From Raja brachyura (Eukaryota), in the NCBI GenBank assembly GCA_963514005.1, contig OY740821.1:13082001-13146000 (forward strand): DNA of 64,000 bases. The letters run 5' to 3'. Made by a program: the position numbers. Every line of letters begins with the position of its first letter. Position 1 is the stretch's first letter. This document shows, in pieces, positions 6,001-12,000 of the stretch.

Positions 6001-9000
6001 ACTATTTGGTGCAATTACCCCCTTGTGCTACAAAGTTCTCTTTGTTCATTAACAGTGACCAGTGGCAATTCTCCAGCTGTATAATAAGCAATGTACCATT
6101 GGAATCAATAGTCCAAAGATGTAGTCCGTAAAAGGCAATGGTTTTTGCACTCCCAGTTTTTTTGTTTTGCCCAGTCTGCCTCCTTCCCAAATATCTGACA
6201 GGTGCAATATTAAAACTGCATGTGCTGCAAGGGACAGTACCATTGCCTGGTTATTATCAACGACCAGGGGATACTTCCATTTGAGAGACCGAGGTTCCTC
6301 TTGCTTTGAAGGAACAGCGTCAAACAGTTTCTGCTGGAAAGGCACGGCATTAAACCACCCCTCCCTCCTTTATACTGGACATCAACAGCAGGAGATTGGA
6401 GTGTTACATTCTGTGTGTGTGTATTTATCATGACTCTTGGATACAAATTGGATGACACACACACACATACAAAGGCATTAGTAAACCAGTCATTTCCTCT
6501 AGTTAGATTGTCAGTCTTCTGACTATGAGATCAAGAGTCACACATTCTCACCGTATCCCCACCCTCCCCTCACCTTCCAAAGTTCAAATATAAACCCTTT
6601 GCTTGTTGTTGAGTTGCCAGGTATCTAGATAGAACCCTGAAGGTGATCCTCTATGTCCTTTTTATTTCTGACTTTGCTGGCAGACTATTGTGCCAGTAGT
6701 CTGGATTATCAAAGGCATGGATGTCAGCCTCAGTAATAAACACCGTACTGTCATCCAGGTATTCTGGGTTCTGCACAATGCTCACACAGCCATTGAGGTA
6801 GGCTCGTTTGTTCATGTACTCGTATTCCTGGTTATCACTTGGTTTTGAGTCCGATTCCTTCCGATTCCCAGTTGACTGGGTAGTATTCACATCACCGGCT
6901 TTACTGATTAAGGGATCTGCATCGTTGGCAGGTTTCAGGTCCTCTGTAAGCAAAGCACAAAGACTTGTAATTCACTGGAAAATAACTAAATGTCTTTTAT
7001 CTTCCTTGCTTCTTAGATGCATGTCTGACATGTATTTGAACAGACACACACACCTCTCCTCTGGTCATTTCCTAGCCTGGTGCAAAACAAATAACAGAAA
7101 AGACTATGGATTGAGACAGGACTTGCCTCATCTTTAGGTCTCTACTCGATCAGACATAATTGCATTTACCCCTTGAACCATTAGGTGGAACTACAATGCC
7201 GTACAATTATTGTATCAAGGATACTTACTGGCAAGAGAGTGTGAGTTACGATTAAATGATAGAACAAGTTTGTGCTTGTATTAATATTTGACCCCACTCT
7301 GCAGGCACTTTACAGCCAATGAATTCCTGCCGCAGCGCAACTATTGCAGGCAAATACAACAGCCAATTATGCACTGCATAATCCCACAATTAAGAAATTA
7401 AATGAATAGCCAGTTAACCTGTTCTTGGTGTGGTTTCCCAAGATATAAATTATGTCTTGCTCTTCTAATAGCAGCATCCGATCTTTAGCACTCATCAGAA
7501 TAAACATACAAGGCTTTGATTTAATTTTCTGATCTGATAAGACACTTATCCAAAGAGCACTCGGTCACTACTCAAGTACCAGAATATATTTATTGCTCAC
7601 AGTTTCCCACAAATCTACTGACTCCATAGCTACCAAGACTACACCTCCTCCCACCCTATCCCTGGTCAGGACACTATCCCTTTCTTCCAGTCGCTCTGTC
7701 TTTTCTGCATCTGTTCTCCAGAGGAAGCTTTCCATTCTAGAAAATCAGGAAATGAGGGTTCCCTCGCATGTGCTTGATGGAGCCCTCACCGGCATCTCCT
7801 CCATTTTCTGCACGCACCATCTTCCCCAAGTCCTCTTAGTCCTCACCTTTCACACTGCCAGCTTCCATATCCAGCACAGCATTCTTCAATATTTCTGCCA
7901 GCTGCATCCTGATCCCACCACTAGTCACATCTTCCCATCTCCAACCTTTATACTTTCCACAGGGACCACTCTCTCTGTGACTCCCTGGTTTCTATACTTC
8001 CTCCCTCACCACCATCCAGAGACCTAAATACCCCATCCGGGTTACACAGAGATTCACACAGACTTCCTCCAACCTCATCCATTGCATTTGTGCATCTAGT
8101 GCTTCCTGTGTGGCTACCTCTACATCGGTGAGCACTAGCGCTTGTCAGCTCTTGCCCCACCTTTCCTCGCGCCCCTTTGTACTGACTAAATGCCCTTGAC
8201 TCTTTCAAGCCAACCCAAAATATCAACAGTGAATTCCCTGAGAGTTACCTAACCCACTGATTTCCTCCAGCAGTTCAGTTGTTTGCTGCTGGATTAGACT
8301 GTCTAGATAGGTTATATCTTCAGATTGTAATTTAGACATGATAAATTACAAATTATACCAGATTTAATTAGGCAATTTAGTTTCTTCTTTTAGAAGTTTC
8401 ATATTTTCTAAATTCCTGTACAACTGCATTTCATTTTTATTTTTGTAATCAAACTCCAAGCAGAAGGTTCAAAGGGTGAATACGTTTCTTACCGGCGGTA
8501 GTGTTTTTTTGTTCTGGCATCACATAGCCATTAATGTCCACCTCTGCTTCATCAGATGGGGAAATCATCATGTTTGTGCCATTGGAGAAACGTGCACTGC
8601 TGTCTCGCGAGCGGTGGCCACGGAGCTGGAGTGTTCCATTCAAAGATATCTCTTCATACAGATCAATGGAGGATGCTGTACCTCGACCCTCCGATGACTC
8701 CGAGATAGTCCGCGTCGTAGATTCATTCCGTGTTCTCAGTGAGCGCTTAGATCCCAGGTCTCCATTCTTCATCCCAGTCTAATAAATGAACAGGGCACTT
8801 TGTTATATGTCACTGTAGCTGGTGTTGCACACATTCCTCTTATGTGGTATGGTTAAAGGACATTTTGTAAGAGGTAAATAATTACACCATGAGCACATGG
8901 TCACATTTTCATGTTTATTGTGTTTTTCACGATCTCCTTCAGGGCCTCAATGCTAGAGGAGGACCCTGACTGAGGAGATCAGTTTAGACCAGGGGTCGGC

Positions 9001-12000
9001 AACGTTGTTCTGCATAGGGGCCGGGACGCATGTCTGTGAGCGGATGGCGGGCCACATCTATCACGTGGGTACATATGGGTCCCGCCCCCATCCCGCCCCA
9101 GATGGCTGGCAGGCATCAAATCACGTGTTCACAGAAGGTAGACAAAAATGCTGAGGAAACTCAGCGGGTGAGGCAGCCTCATGCAATCCTTGCATTAGAT
9201 GGATTAGATTTGCATGTCTCACCCGCTGAGTTTCTCCAGCATTTTTGTCTACCTTCGATTTTTCCAGCATCTGCAGTTCTTTCTTAAACGTGTTCACAGA
9301 AGATGAGTGGCTTTGCGCAGGATGCGGTACAGCCAGAGCACTCGGCCACACTCGGGGTGGGTGCTCAGCCACGTTTGGGGCGGGCGCTCGGTGGGCCGGA
9401 TGGTTATGGGGGGCCGGATGATTTTGGGTTCGCATTCGGCCCGGGGGCCGGAGGTTGCCGACCCCTGGTTTAGACCTTACTTTTTAAAAATGTAGCATGT
9501 CACTGGATTTTCTTTCTCACCAATGCTCCATCATGCTCTTATTTTCTTTCTCACCTACAGTTCTCCCTACTACAGTCTGCTTGCACATCACCATAATTAC
9601 AGTTATTACCGGCACTAAAGTTCCACTTTATGCATATTAAGATCTCTTTCTGTATCCCTATTGCAGAAGTGAATGTATAAGGAGAAGTGTATGAAGTATC
9701 TGGGTGGAGTCACAAATTCTGGCTCAATTATTTCTCTATCTGAACCTAAAGAAGAATTGGATAGGTGACTGAACAGGAACTCTGTCTGCGATGACCAAAT
9801 TCCCGATGCACAGTTTTGAGCAAGAAACACTGCAACAAACTCGTTGCTGTTGAGACACTTCAGAATAGCATGTTGGTGTAGGGTGCAGTTTATCAAAGCT
9901 GCATAGATGCCAATCTGTAATCCAGCAAATACCCACAATTGAATGGATCCCTTCTGGTATTCCGTACTCGAGGTACATAAAATGAATTCAGTCATAAAAG
10001 TTAGACTTTTACATGGTGCGTGCTGCTTACAATATATATTTTTTAATATTAGTGAACAAATGCAATAACTGCACTAAAGATTCAAAGAATCGGGGCAAAG
10101 ATTATCCAAACTTGCCCTTTAAATACCAGGACTAAGAATATTCCAATTCTTTTTGAGACTATCTTTAATTGTTTCTGTGTACTATCCAAATAAAACACGA
10201 TATTTTTGCTGCTATCAGTGTCTCCAAATAGACTATCTTGTACCCACCTGCCGAGAGCCATCTTGACCAATCCCATTCATGGGCATGTACGCAGCTGGTA
10301 AACTGTTGCTCTGCAAAAGAGACACAAGCATTACATTTGGAAGGGCACCTAACACAAATTTTCTCCAGTTGATCAGGAGACCATTTGAGATATTAGCAAA
10401 CAAATGGTTTGAAATTTATCAGTTAATTAGTGCAGGAGAAATTGTGAAGTAAATTCTGTCAGGTTAATGTATTAGGAAAAAAAAAAATAGGTCGGGCAGC
10501 AACCCTGAAGAACATGGATAGGTGAAATTTCAAGTTGGGACTTCTTCAGACCGAGGTATATTTATATTTGAACTTTGGAAGGTGAGGGGAGGGTGGGGAT
10601 ACGGTGAGAATGTGTGACTCTTGATCTCATAGTCAGAAGACTGACAATCTAACTAGAGGAAATGACTAGTTTACTAATGCCTTTGTATGTGTGTGTGTCA
10701 TCCAATTTGTATCCAAGAGTCATGATAAATACACACACACAGAATGTAACACTCCAATCTCCTGCTGTTGATGTCCAGTATAAAGGAGGGAGGGGTGGTT
10801 TAATGCCGTGCCTTTCCAGCAGAAACTGTTTGACGCTGTTCCTTCAAAGCAAGAGGAACCTCGGTCTCTCAAATGGAAGTATCCCCTGGTCGTTGATAAT
10901 AACCAGGCAATGGTACTGTCCCTTGCAGCACATGCAGTTTTAATATTGCACCTGTCAGATATTTGGGAAGGAGGCAGACTGGGCAAAACAAAAAAACTGG
11001 GAGTGCAAAAACCATTGCCTTTTACGGACTACATCTTTGGACTATTGATTCCAATGGTACATTGCTTATTATACAGCTGGAGAATTGCCACTGGTCACTG
11101 TTAATGAACAAAGAGAACTTTGTAGCACAAAGGGGTAATTGCACCAAATCAGCAGAGGTATTCAGATCATACCAAAAGCGGAACCCTGGCTGATATTTTT
11201 TCTCTCCCTTGCTTAGGAGCGCCAAGCCATTACTACTCTCCCAACTAAGATCATCCAACTGGAAAGTCAAATTTAGGATTTTCCTGGTCGATAACAAATT
11301 GATCATTTACCCCACTAAACCATGAGGAAATCAGCTAATTCTCTCAACATGTCAGGAGAAATTTGCTTACAACTCTGCACTCTCTCAGCTAGCTGGTTGA
11401 ATCAAAGGATATTGTGAATGGGCAATAAAAGCTTGGTCTTGCCAGTGACGTCTGCGCATCACACAAACTGATTGCTTTGTGCAATCAACACCTAGGAAAA
11501 ACGGAAGGGAACTAAGTCCCCCCAAATAATCTGCTCTTGCCACAAATCCCTAGATTAATATTCGCCGATTTCATACCCTGGTTGATTCAATCCTCAGCCG
11601 TACTACACCAGATTGTGGGTTATCCAGTGTGGTCTCCATCAAATCTTCATCCGGATCATCACAATCCACAAGGTCTTCCTCATATTCATGCAGGGTCCTT
11701 TGCTCACTAACGTATGTATTGTTAGCCCTGTCATCGCCCTAAGGAAAGATACGGAATGGTTAGCGATACAGCTGGCAGCCTATCAACAAAACAGGGACAT
11801 CCTCAAGAAGGCAATGATACTGTTAAATCATCAGAATATAGGCAAACCTGATAAAATGTTCCATCTTAGTTGCGGTATAATGCAAAGGAGGTCCGTGGCA
11901 AATCTACCCAAATCACTACTGTGATTCGGAGCAGGATATCCAATAGAGAATGGTGAGAATGTGGCGCTTGCTATCATTGAGTGGTTGTGGTAAATGACAT

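What the first reader, a model, noticed from the sequence alone, without database searches (positions are those of the whole stretch)
6004..11149. Near-identical 590-bp inverted copy of the gene's own 3'UTR in intron 25, bracketing the last three exons
Seen: 6004-6594 (begins about 56 nt after the stop codon) and 10561-11149 are reverse complements. I found two substitutions and one (AC) unit difference. The sequence is not a recognisable transposon and shows no polyA tail or TSD. Inference: the pre-mRNA could fold into a ~590-bp duplex looping out exons 26-28, which hold both YxxM and both NPxY motifs. Possible outcomes are ADAR editing of the UTR, endo-siRNAs, exon 26-27 back-splicing or altered exon 26 inclusion. 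At DNA level the repeats could mediate a ~4-kb inversion that detaches the signalling tail.
Basis: partly seen in the sequence, partly recalled or inferred. Interest (0 to 1): 0.75.

Follow-up and report, generated by a model that had tools for sequence, protein, structure and literature searches.

The report
Inverted intron copy of ErbB3 3'UTR
A 590-base stretch just after the stop codon of an ErbB3-like receptor gene has a near-identical upside-down copy in the gene's third-from-last intron; it is real in the sequence and looks like a recent copy-and-paste insertion, most likely harmless.

Summary
Window 6004-6594 and 10561-11149 are reverse complements: 587 of 591 aligned columns match, with two transitions and one AC unit. 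The pair brackets the last three exons of a minus-strand ErbB-family gene, probably ErbB3.

No third copy lies in the 64-kb window, and homology stops sharply at both arm ends.

I found an imperfect 12/13-nt direct repeat abutting the intron copy. Only 9 of 20,000 random sites score as well. The UTR copy has none. So the intron copy is probably the derived one, a young local inverted insertion.

The two arms can form a duplex of about 589 bp (-1163 kcal/mol) that loops out exons 26-28.

Editing, siRNAs, back-splicing, exon-26 skipping and DNA inversion are all known outcomes of such repeats. None can be tested here, because no reads, transcripts or sister genomes are available. It is also unproven that 6004-6594 lies in the mature 3'UTR.

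Verdict: a new member of a known kind (intragenic inverted repeat), most likely neutral, of modest interest.

The parts
6004..6594 (-). Arm A (591 nt): starts 56 nt after the stop codon in the presumed 3'UTR or 3' flank. Probably the parental copy.
   Evidence: Its flanks share no direct repeat: local score 4, and 75% of random sites score as high.
10561..11149 (-). Arm B (589 nt): inverted copy inside intron 25, making up 47% of the intron. It lies 427 nt from the exon-25 donor and 250 nt from the exon-26 acceptor. Probably the derived insertion.
   Evidence: Flanking direct repeat.
10548..10560 (+). Left copy of the putative target-site duplication (13 nt, CAGACCGAGGTAT, then 1 extra A before the insert).
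   Evidence: alignment; 9 of 20,000 random sites have a repeat this good abutting both sides.
11150..11161 (+). Right copy of the putative target-site duplication (12 nt, CAGCAGAGGTAT), directly abutting the insert.
6595..10560 (-). The 3,966-nt spacer. It holds the last 250 nt of intron 25, exons 26-28, introns 26 and 27, the stop codon and the first 56 nt of UTR.
11577..11738 (-). Exon 25 (162 nt, phase 0). Reading through its donor gives one codon and then TGA.
10248..10310 (-). Exon 26 (63 nt, 21 codons, in frame on both sides). It carries the YMPM motif.
8493..8778 (-). Exon 27 (286 nt).
6651..6943 (-). Coding part of exon 28, with YEYM, NPEY, NPDY and two YxN motifs. The stop codon is at 6653-6651.
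19382..19633 (-). Open frame holding the kinase catalytic-loop exon, which reads HRN instead of HRD. This is the ErbB3-type pseudokinase mark used to name the gene.
   Evidence: Pfam PK_Tyr_Ser-Thr, E = 1.7e-16. Alignment to PDB chains. PMC4718504, passages.

Best explanation
The intron copy is a real, evolutionarily young insertion, possibly still polymorphic. A 589-bp segment lying 4.0-4.6 kb downstream in the same gene, just after the stop codon, was copied and pasted in inverted orientation into intron 25 of an ErbB3-like gene. About 12-13 nt of the target was duplicated in the process.

The most likely route is a DNA-level templated insertion or template switch during repair or replication. 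This is inferred, not shown.

As a by-product, one primary transcript now carries two arms that can form a duplex of about 589 bp, interrupted only by two G.U pairs and a 2-nt bulge, around exons 26-28.

The duplex can form only in transcripts that still hold intron 25 when the polymerase reaches the UTR arm about 4 kb later. I therefore expect it in a minority of transcripts. There the most likely consequence is promiscuous A-to-I editing of both arms by ADAR in the nucleus. Any effect on exon 26-28 splicing is likely to be small.

I judge the element to be selectively neutral or slightly deleterious rather than a regulatory device.

Shown: the repeat, its uniqueness in the window, its sharp edges, the flanking direct repeat, the exon map and the pairing energy. 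Inferred: the direction of copying, the mechanism, the age, and everything about RNA.
For: - Identity and coordinates.
- Of 114 self-BLAST pairs in the window, only this one touches the two regions. Transposon families in the window are 79-96.6% identical and have several copies.
- Flanks show no residual homology beyond the arms: scores of 18-26 against shuffle means of 18-23, for both 300-nt and 1000-nt flanks.
- The intron copy is flanked by a 12/13-nt imperfect direct repeat. 254 of 20,000 random sites score at least 8, and only 9 of 20,000 also abut both sides. The UTR copy has none.
- Three differences between the arms, no N in the window and a 4-kb spacer do not fit a fold-back assembly artefact (inference).
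- The arms carry no transposon marks. None of 3 arm ORFs has a Pfam match. There are no tRNA-like genes in 5000-12000 and no Rfam family at gathering score.
- Pairing: cofolding the arms gives -1163 kcal/mol with 588 intermolecular pairs, against -148 and -163 for the arms alone. The minimum-energy fold of the whole 5,146-nt segment pairs the arms over 589 bp.
- Templated insertions that re-replicate a piece of the host site ('cycles') are a described class of rearrangement (PMC7025897, passages).
Against: - The two copies of the flanking repeat differ by one mismatch and one gap in 13 nt, far more than the arms do (0.3%). Either it is not a true target duplication, or the event is old and the arms have been homogenised, or synthesis at the junction was error-prone.
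- The abutment criterion was chosen after I had seen the repeat.
- There is no microhomology at either junction, which a pure template-switch model would predict.
- Read on the gene's sense strand, the intron copy ends in an A/T-rich stretch followed by the direct repeat. That layout is also what a retroposed element would show.
- I could not count genome-wide copies, look at reads or compare other species.
- Nothing here shows that the duplex forms in vivo.
Confidence: 0.55

Rival explanations
1. A functional hairpin. The intron-UTR duplex is used by the cell to regulate the signalling tail. It could do so by promoting exon-26 skipping or exon 26-27 back-splicing, by marking the UTR through ADAR editing, or by yielding endo-siRNAs against the gene's own UTR.
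For: - The duplex is thermodynamically overwhelming and encloses exactly the exons with both YxxM and both NPxY motifs.
- Exon 26 is 63 nt and in frame, so skipping it would remove only the YMPM site. [quoted passage not shown] - Hairpin RNA loci born from inverted gene fragments, some within 3'UTRs, silence their parent genes in Drosophila (PMC10317233, passages).
Against: - Only one arm is intronic, whereas known circRNA-promoting pairs sit in both flanking introns.
- Near-identity of the arms indicates youth, not conservation.
- The same pre-mRNA holds many other complementary repeat pairs that would compete.
- Intron 25 may be removed before the UTR arm is made (inference).
- There are no RNA data.
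Confidence: 0.1
2. Two independent insertions of one young, roughly 590-bp non-autonomous mobile element that landed 4 kb apart in opposite orientations. The 3'UTR copy would then not be gene sequence at all.
For: - Both copies share exactly the same two ends, with sharp edges.
- On the sense strand the intron copy shows the layout direct repeat - element - A/T-rich end - direct repeat.
- LINE reverse-transcriptase remnants exist in this gene's introns (RVT_1).
Against: - There is no further copy or fragment in 64 kb, while genuine repeat families here have 3 or more copies.
- The UTR copy has no flanking duplication.
- I saw no terminal inverted repeats when reading the arm ends. There is no tRNA-like head, no tRNA, 5S or 7SL match in the Rfam search of the UTR arm at E up to 1, no poly(A) tail and no ORF with a domain.
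- Two hits of a rare family within 4 kb are unlikely (inference).
Confidence: 0.12
3. Assembly artefact. Only one copy exists in the animal, and the second was created by mis-joined or chimeric reads.
For: Near-identity of the copies. Inverted duplications are a known class of assembly error (recalled, no call).
Against: - There is no gap in the window.
- The copies differ at three places.
- The spacer is 4 kb of correctly oriented, spliceable exons, not a zero-spacer fold-back.
- The intron copy has its own flanking direct repeat, which assemblers do not create.
Confidence: 0.1
4. An old inverted repeat kept identical by gene conversion between the arms, with or without recurrent flipping of the 4-kb spacer, like a miniature palindrome.
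For: The putative target duplication has diverged by 2 changes in 13 nt while the arms differ by 0.3%. 590 bp at 99.3% identity and 4 kb apart is a plausible substrate for intrachromatid exchange; compare the 1,041-bp int1h repeats of F8 (PMC8776779, passages).
Against: Thirteen nucleotides are too few to date anything. The edges are sharp, with no decayed homology beyond them. Each flip would inactivate the gene's tail, so selection should act against such a repeat persisting.
Confidence: 0.08

Closest known systems
Reverse complementary matches (RCMs) in introns flanking circularised exons
   Same: Two complementary stretches in one pre-mRNA that bring distant splice sites together. Such pairs promote both back-splicing and skipping of the enclosed exons (PMC8330042, abstract; PMC8938519, start of the abstract in the search listing).
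   Different: Here only the upstream arm is intronic. The downstream arm lies beyond the last coding exon, so the loop holds the terminal exon and the stop codon. The arms are far longer (589 bp) and are derived from the gene itself rather than from dispersed repeats.
F8 int1h / int22h inverted repeats (haemophilia A inversions)
   Same: One copy lies in an intron and a near-identical inverted copy lies elsewhere. Recombination between them inverts the intervening piece and cuts the gene. int1h is 1,041 bp with one mismatch (PMC8776779, passages).
   Different: The F8 repeats are 140 kb or more apart with the second copy outside the gene. Here the arms are 590 bp, 4 kb apart and both within one transcription unit. 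No inversion has been observed.
Hairpin RNA (hpRNA) loci and inverted-duplication origin of small-RNA genes
   Same: An inverted duplicate of a gene fragment makes a long hairpin whose small RNAs would match the parent gene. Some hpRNAs were born inside existing 3'UTRs or next to their progenitor gene (PMC10317233, passages).
   Different: Known hpRNAs have closely spaced arms in a dedicated or non-coding transcript and were shown to depend on Dcr-2 in flies. Here the arms are 4 kb apart, split between an intron and the UTR of the target gene itself, in a vertebrate, with no small-RNA data.
Long dsRNA substrates of ADAR (inverted repeats in UTRs; intronic editing-complementary sequences)
   Same: [quoted passage not shown] A distant intronic element can induce editing at an exonic site (PMC3479170, title and start of the abstract in the search listing).
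   Different: Classical intronic partners are short and give site-selective editing. This duplex is long and almost perfect, so promiscuous editing would be expected (established knowledge, recalled). It has not been measured.
Templated insertions / template-switch inverted duplications
   Same: A copy of a nearby segment is inserted at a break, and in 'cycles' a short piece of the host site is re-replicated (PMC7025897, passages). Short-range template switching is described in ape genomes (PMC7954356, title and start of the abstract in the search listing).
   Different: There is no microhomology at the junctions here. The germline origin and the mechanism are inferred only.
ErbB4 CYT-1/CYT-2 alternative splicing of exon 26
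   Same: In a 28-exon ErbB-family gene, a small exon numbered 26 lies in the cytoplasmic tail, and the paper calls the isoform that includes it the PI3K-linked one (PMC2944867, passages). Exon 26 here is 63 nt, in frame, and carries YMPM.
   Different: No evidence that exon 26 of this gene is ever skipped. The ErbB4 event is not known to depend on an inverted repeat.

Membership tests
circRNA-promoting intronic complementary pair (RCM) | Two reverse-complementary segments in the same pre-mRNA | tested here: met
   587/591 identity in inverted orientation. 588-589 predicted base pairs.
circRNA-promoting intronic complementary pair (RCM) | One arm in each intron flanking the circularised exon(s) | tested here: not met
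   The upstream arm is in intron 25. The downstream arm is after the stop codon of the last exon, not in intron 27.
circRNA-promoting intronic complementary pair (RCM) | Back-splice junction reads (8493>10310) | not testable with these tools
   No RNA data.
ADAR hyper-editing substrate | Long, near-perfect intramolecular duplex | tested here: met
   -1163 kcal/mol. Only two G.U pairs and a 2-nt bulge interrupt the duplex. This is in silico only.
ADAR hyper-editing substrate | Clustered A-to-G RNA/DNA differences | not testable with these tools
   No RNA data.
hpRNA / endo-siRNA locus | Dicer-dependent 21-22-nt small RNAs from both arms | not testable with these tools
   No small-RNA data.
NAHR-prone inverted repeat of the F8 int1h type | Highly identical inverted copies, one in an intron, placed so that an inversion truncates the gene | tested here: met
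   99.3% identity over 590 bp. An inversion would flip exons 26-28.
NAHR-prone inverted repeat of the F8 int1h type | Both orientations of the spacer seen among individuals or cells | not testable with these tools
   Only one assembled sequence is available.
Transposable element family (SINE, MITE or LINE fragment) | Further dispersed copies | tested here: not met
   No further copy in the 64-kb window. The rest of the genome and repeat libraries are not available.
Transposable element family (SINE, MITE or LINE fragment) | Target-site duplication at each copy | tested here: inconclusive
   The intron copy has an imperfect 12/13-nt repeat (9 of 20,000 random sites match it). The UTR copy has none.
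Transposable element family (SINE, MITE or LINE fragment) | Structural marks: terminal inverted repeats, pol-III head, poly(A) tail or transposon ORF | tested here: not met
   None of 3 arm ORFs has a Pfam match. No tRNA-like genes. No tRNA, 5S or 7SL match at E up to 1. The arm ends as read show no terminal inverted repeats and no poly(A).
Templated insertion (cycle type) | The insert copies a nearby template, and a short host segment is duplicated at the site | tested here: met
Templated insertion (cycle type) | Microhomology at the junctions | tested here: not met
   0-1 nt at both junctions.
ErbB3 (HER3) orthologue | ErbB architecture: receptor L domain and tyrosine-kinase exons | tested here: met
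   Recep_L_domain at 4.4e-10, and PK_Tyr_Ser-Thr in 4 of the 4 kinase-region frames among the 10 submitted.
ErbB3 (HER3) orthologue | Catalytic-loop Asp replaced by Asn | tested here: met
   The frame 19633-19382 reads HRN where EGFR and ErbB4 chains read HRD (alignments). This is given as the feature that classes HER3 as a pseudokinase in PMC4718504 (passages).
ErbB3 (HER3) orthologue | Closest solved relative is ErbB3 | tested here: not met
   Exon by exon, ErbB4 scores best: 103 vs 82 bits for the L-domain exon. For two kinase exons ErbB4, ErbB2 and EGFR all rank above ErbB3. This could simply mean a slowly evolving ErbB3.
mir-130 precursor | Rfam gathering score and a stable hairpin | tested here: not met
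   22.8 bits against a gathering score of 40.6. Fold z-score -0.20.

The most novel reading that the evidence does not exclude
The inverted copy of the gene's own UTR in intron 25 could be a built-in switch for the PI3K-coupling tail of ErbB3. When the duplex forms, it would divert transcripts to products that lack the YxxM and NPxY exons. Possible routes are exon-26 skipping, an exon 26-27 circle, or intron-25 retention or polyadenylation, which stops translation one codon after exon 25. The duplex could also feed small RNAs or edited UTRs back onto the mRNA. In the boldest form the repeat is old and kept identical by gene conversion because this switch is useful.
Probability: 0.07. Interest if true: 0.65.

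Novelty: new member of a known kind. Interest (0 to 1): 0.3.

Why it matters
If the repeat is real, it is a natural test case. It puts an almost perfect 589-bp intron-to-UTR duplex around the exons that couple an ErbB3-type receptor to PI3K.

It would show how much a long self-derived complementary pair, with one arm outside the introns, affects three things in a vertebrate: editing, splicing of a terminal exon block, and DNA stability.

As it stands it is a small, young structural variant of the kind genomes often carry. Its main practical value is as a caution for annotators and as a marker for dating or population surveys.

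Tried and rejected
- **Staggered-break inversion** as the origin of the arms. Rejected because exons 26-28 are in the same orientation as the rest of the gene.
- **A larger, decayed inverted duplication.** Rejected because flanks of 300 and 1000 nt score no better than shuffles.
- **L1-type retrocopy of the mRNA 3' end.** There is no poly(A) tail, the arm end at 6004 has no canonical signal 10-30 nt upstream, and the target does not look like a TT/AAAA site (reading; the consensus is recalled).
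- **miRNA in the arm.** A mir-130-like match falls below the gathering score and folds no better than shuffles, so I took it as chance. A mir-297 match at E = 0.89 was ignored.
- **Language-model look-alike search with the exon-28 peptide**. It returned only bacterial LptA/LptD/OstA-type clusters and 'hypothetical protein' clusters, at scores of 0.90 or below and with low recognition. It was meaningless for a disordered tail and was not used.
- **Pfam on the tail exons 24-28.** None of the 5 had a family match, as expected for a disordered tail.
- **Literature.** Two searches found no paper describing this structure: ErbB3 + inverted repeat + intron + circular RNA (869 papers held at least 3 of the 4 terms, 8 listed), and inverted duplication + UTR + intron + pre-mRNA + dsRNA + hyper-editing (73 papers held at least 5 of the 6 terms, 8 listed). 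I saw only the listings.
- **Not done:**
  - The exons were never joined into a spliced model for any search. All protein searches were exon by exon.
  - No eukaryotic genome, read set or repeat library was on hand, so copy number in the genome, orthologous loci and the species stayed unchecked.

Full report
**What is there.** The window has no N. Positions 6004-6594 (591 nt) and 10561-11149 (589 nt) are reverse complements. They match in 587 of 591 aligned columns. The differences are two transitions (6022/11131 and 6487/10668) and one AC unit, (AC)6 against (AC)5. The spacer is 3,966 nt. A self-BLAST of the window gave 114 repeat pairs. This pair is the longest and most identical, and it is the only one touching either region. 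All other pairs are at most 96.6% identical and belong to multi-copy interspersed families. Chance is excluded (E = 0.0).

**The gene.** The gene runs on the minus strand. I searched it exon by exon only.
- Single open frames hit the receptor L domain (4.4e-10), and the tyrosine-kinase family in four frames (1.7e-16 to 8.8e-10).
- Against solved structures the frames match only ErbB-family chains at the top.
- The catalytic-loop frame (19633-19382) reads HRN where EGFR and ErbB4 chains read HRD. Replacement of that Asp by Asn is the feature that classes HER3/ErbB3 as a pseudokinase (PMC4718504, passages).
- Against this, ErbB4 chains score higher than ErbB3 chains for the L-domain exon (103 vs 82 bits). 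ErbB3 is not among the 60 listed hits for two kinase exons.

I call the gene ErbB3-like for three reasons: the Asn, the compact size (about 55 kb for a 28-exon layout), and a C-terminal end that from memory resembles ErbB3 rather than the longer ErbB4 tail. That last point is recalled, not tested. The exon peptides differ from the human chains at many positions, and I do not take the contig for human. The species was not determined.

**Exon map around the repeat.**

| Feature | Coordinates | Size |
|---|---|---|
| Exon 25 | 11738-11577 | 162 nt |
| Intron 25 | 11576-10311 | 1,266 nt |
| Exon 26 | 10310-10248 | 63 nt, in frame |
| Intron 26 | 10247-8779 | 1,469 nt |
| Exon 27 | 8778-8493 | 286 nt |
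| Intron 27 | 8492-6944 | 1,549 nt |
| Exon 28 (coding part) | 6943-6651 | 293 nt, stop TAG at 6653-6651 |

All borders are AG/GT. The intron arm makes up 47% of intron 25. It starts 427 nt after the exon-25 donor and ends 250 nt before the exon-26 acceptor. The UTR arm starts 56 nt after the stop. YMPM is in exon 26; YEYM, NPEY and NPDY are in exon 28; exon 25 has none of these motifs. That layout is recalled, and I did not count all exons.

**Is arm A really 3'UTR?** This is not shown. On the sense strand an AATAAA lies at 6666, inside the coding sequence 13 nt before the stop. The next canonical signals are at 5405 and 5257. The arm itself holds only weak variants. If the distal signals are used, the UTR is 1.25-1.4 kb and contains the arm. 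If the proximal one is used, the mature UTR is only a few nucleotides long, and the arm is present only in the nascent transcript.

**Origin.** Homology ends abruptly at both arm ends. Flanks of 300 and 1000 nt score no better than shuffles. This argues against a larger, decayed repeat.

I found that the intron copy is flanked on the plus strand by CAGACCGAGGTAT, one extra A, the insert, and then CAGCAGAGGTAT. Among 20,000 random sites of the same span in this window, 254 had a flank repeat scoring as high. Only 9 had one abutting both sides within 1 nt. I set the abutment rule after seeing the repeat, so the figure is indicative only. The flanks of the UTR copy share nothing (score 4; 75% of random sites do as well).

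The simplest reading is that the UTR-side copy is the parent and the intron copy is a secondary insertion that duplicated 12-13 nt of its target. Candidate mechanisms:
- **Templated insertion or template switch.** This is a described class in which a short host segment is re-replicated (PMC7025897, passages). The lack of junction microhomology counts against a pure switch.
- **Reverse-transcription-mediated copy.** On the sense strand the insert ends in an A/T-rich stretch followed by the direct repeat, and LINE reverse-transcriptase remnants lie in the gene. But there is no poly(A) tail.
- **Two members of a young repeat family.** This is less likely. There is no third copy in 64 kb, no duplication at the UTR copy, no tRNA-like head or Rfam match, and no domain in the three arm ORFs.

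An assembly artefact is unlikely. The arms differ at three places, the spacer is 4 kb of correctly oriented exons, and the insert has its own flank repeat. Only reads can settle this.

**Age (inference).** Two substitutions in 589 nt give K of about 0.0034. At roughly 1e-9 substitutions per site per year, a recalled order of magnitude, that is about 1.7 million years, with a Poisson range of about 0.2-6 million years. The event could be younger if the changes arose during the insertion, or older if the arms exchange by gene conversion. The two copies of the flank repeat differ by a mismatch and a gap in 13 nt. This is either noise, error-prone synthesis at the junction, or a hint of an older event.

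**What it can do.**
- *Pairing.* In silico the arms pair completely. Cofolding gives -1163 kcal/mol with 588 intermolecular pairs, against -148 and -163 for each arm alone. The minimum-energy fold of the whole 5,146-nt segment pairs them over 589 bp. Both substitutions give G.U pairs.
- *In the cell.* The intron arm is transcribed about 4 kb before its partner, so splicing of intron 25 competes with pairing (inference). I therefore expect the duplex in a fraction of transcripts, with promiscuous A-to-I editing as the most likely mark (established behaviour of long nuclear dsRNA, recalled).
- *Back-splicing and exon skipping.* Both are promoted by complementary pairs (PMC8330042, abstract), but there both arms lie in the flanking introns. 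Here one arm lies beyond the last exon. The same pre-mRNA also carries many other complementary repeat pairs.
- *Exon 26.* Skipping it would be in frame and remove YMPM. This recalls the ErbB4 CYT-1/CYT-2 choice at exon 26 (PMC2944867, passages).
- *Premature ends.* In the sense orientation the insert brings two ATTAAA hexamers, at 10944 and 10804, into intron 25. Reading through the exon-25 donor stops after one codon. Intron retention or intronic polyadenylation would therefore also give a receptor without exons 26-28. Two hexamers in 589 nt is not significantly above the window's rate of 0.73 per kb.
- *DNA inversion.* The geometry matches the F8 int1h case: 1,041-bp inverted repeats with one mismatch, one of them in intron 1, whose recombination disrupts the gene (PMC8776779, passages). 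Here the arms are shorter and only 4 kb apart. A flip would put exons 26-28 in antisense. Nothing shows that this happens.

**Verdict.** The structural potential is real, and the functional outcomes are untested. I file it as a new member of a known kind, a young intragenic inverted repeat made by a local copy-and-paste insertion, most likely neutral. Interest is modest (0.3). It would rise if the repeat proved old, regulated, or prone to inversion.

**What stayed unchecked.** I could not check genome-wide copy number, reads, other individuals or species, or any RNA data. The genome collection on offer holds only bacteria and archaea, so I did not use it. No supplementary files were needed. 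All papers were seen as passages, abstracts or listings, as stated at each citation.

Noticed in passing
window 6142-6231 (+); twin at about 11011-10922 (-): Weak full-length match to the mir-130 precursor model inside the arm: 22.8 bits against a gathering score of 40.6. The hairpin is no more stable than shuffles (z = -0.20). Taken as chance. If real, the intron copy would place it on the sense strand of the gene.
   Followed up: yes
window 6666-6661 (-): A canonical AATAAA lies inside the coding sequence, 13 nt before the stop codon. It could give an mRNA with almost no 3'UTR and without arm A.
   Followed up: partly
window 9134-9256, 18086-18413, 35501-35593, 43595-43681, 45791-45887, 57481-57667, 63698-63884: A family of hairpin-shaped (self-complementary) interspersed repeats is scattered through the introns, 79-98% identical between or within copies. 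They provide many competing complementary pairs in the same pre-mRNA.
   Followed up: partly
window 39113-40507 (-), with 29706-30134, 32725-33138, 39814-40133: A LINE reverse-transcriptase remnant (RVT_1, E = 1.4e-10) lies in an intron. Three 300-416-nt repeat copies, 93-97% identical, lie in and near it.
   Followed up: partly
window 19382-19633 (-): The catalytic loop reads HRN (Asn for the catalytic Asp), the pseudokinase mark of ErbB3. Yet exon by exon, the solved ErbB4 chains score higher than the ErbB3 chains.
   Followed up: partly
window 3715-4557 (-): A 281-codon stop-free frame downstream of the gene has no Pfam match. It may be chance or an unrecognised repeat.
   Followed up: partly
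window 22400-23080 and 49600-50210 (-): Long stop-free frames rich in Pro, Ser and Leu in several reading frames at once, which points to C/T-rich low-complexity or tandem DNA inside introns.
   Followed up: no
window 11576-11571 (-): Reading through the exon-25 donor gives Val and then TGA. Any retention or premature end in intron 25 would therefore yield a receptor that stops just after exon 25 and lacks all YxxM and NPxY motifs.
   Followed up: yes
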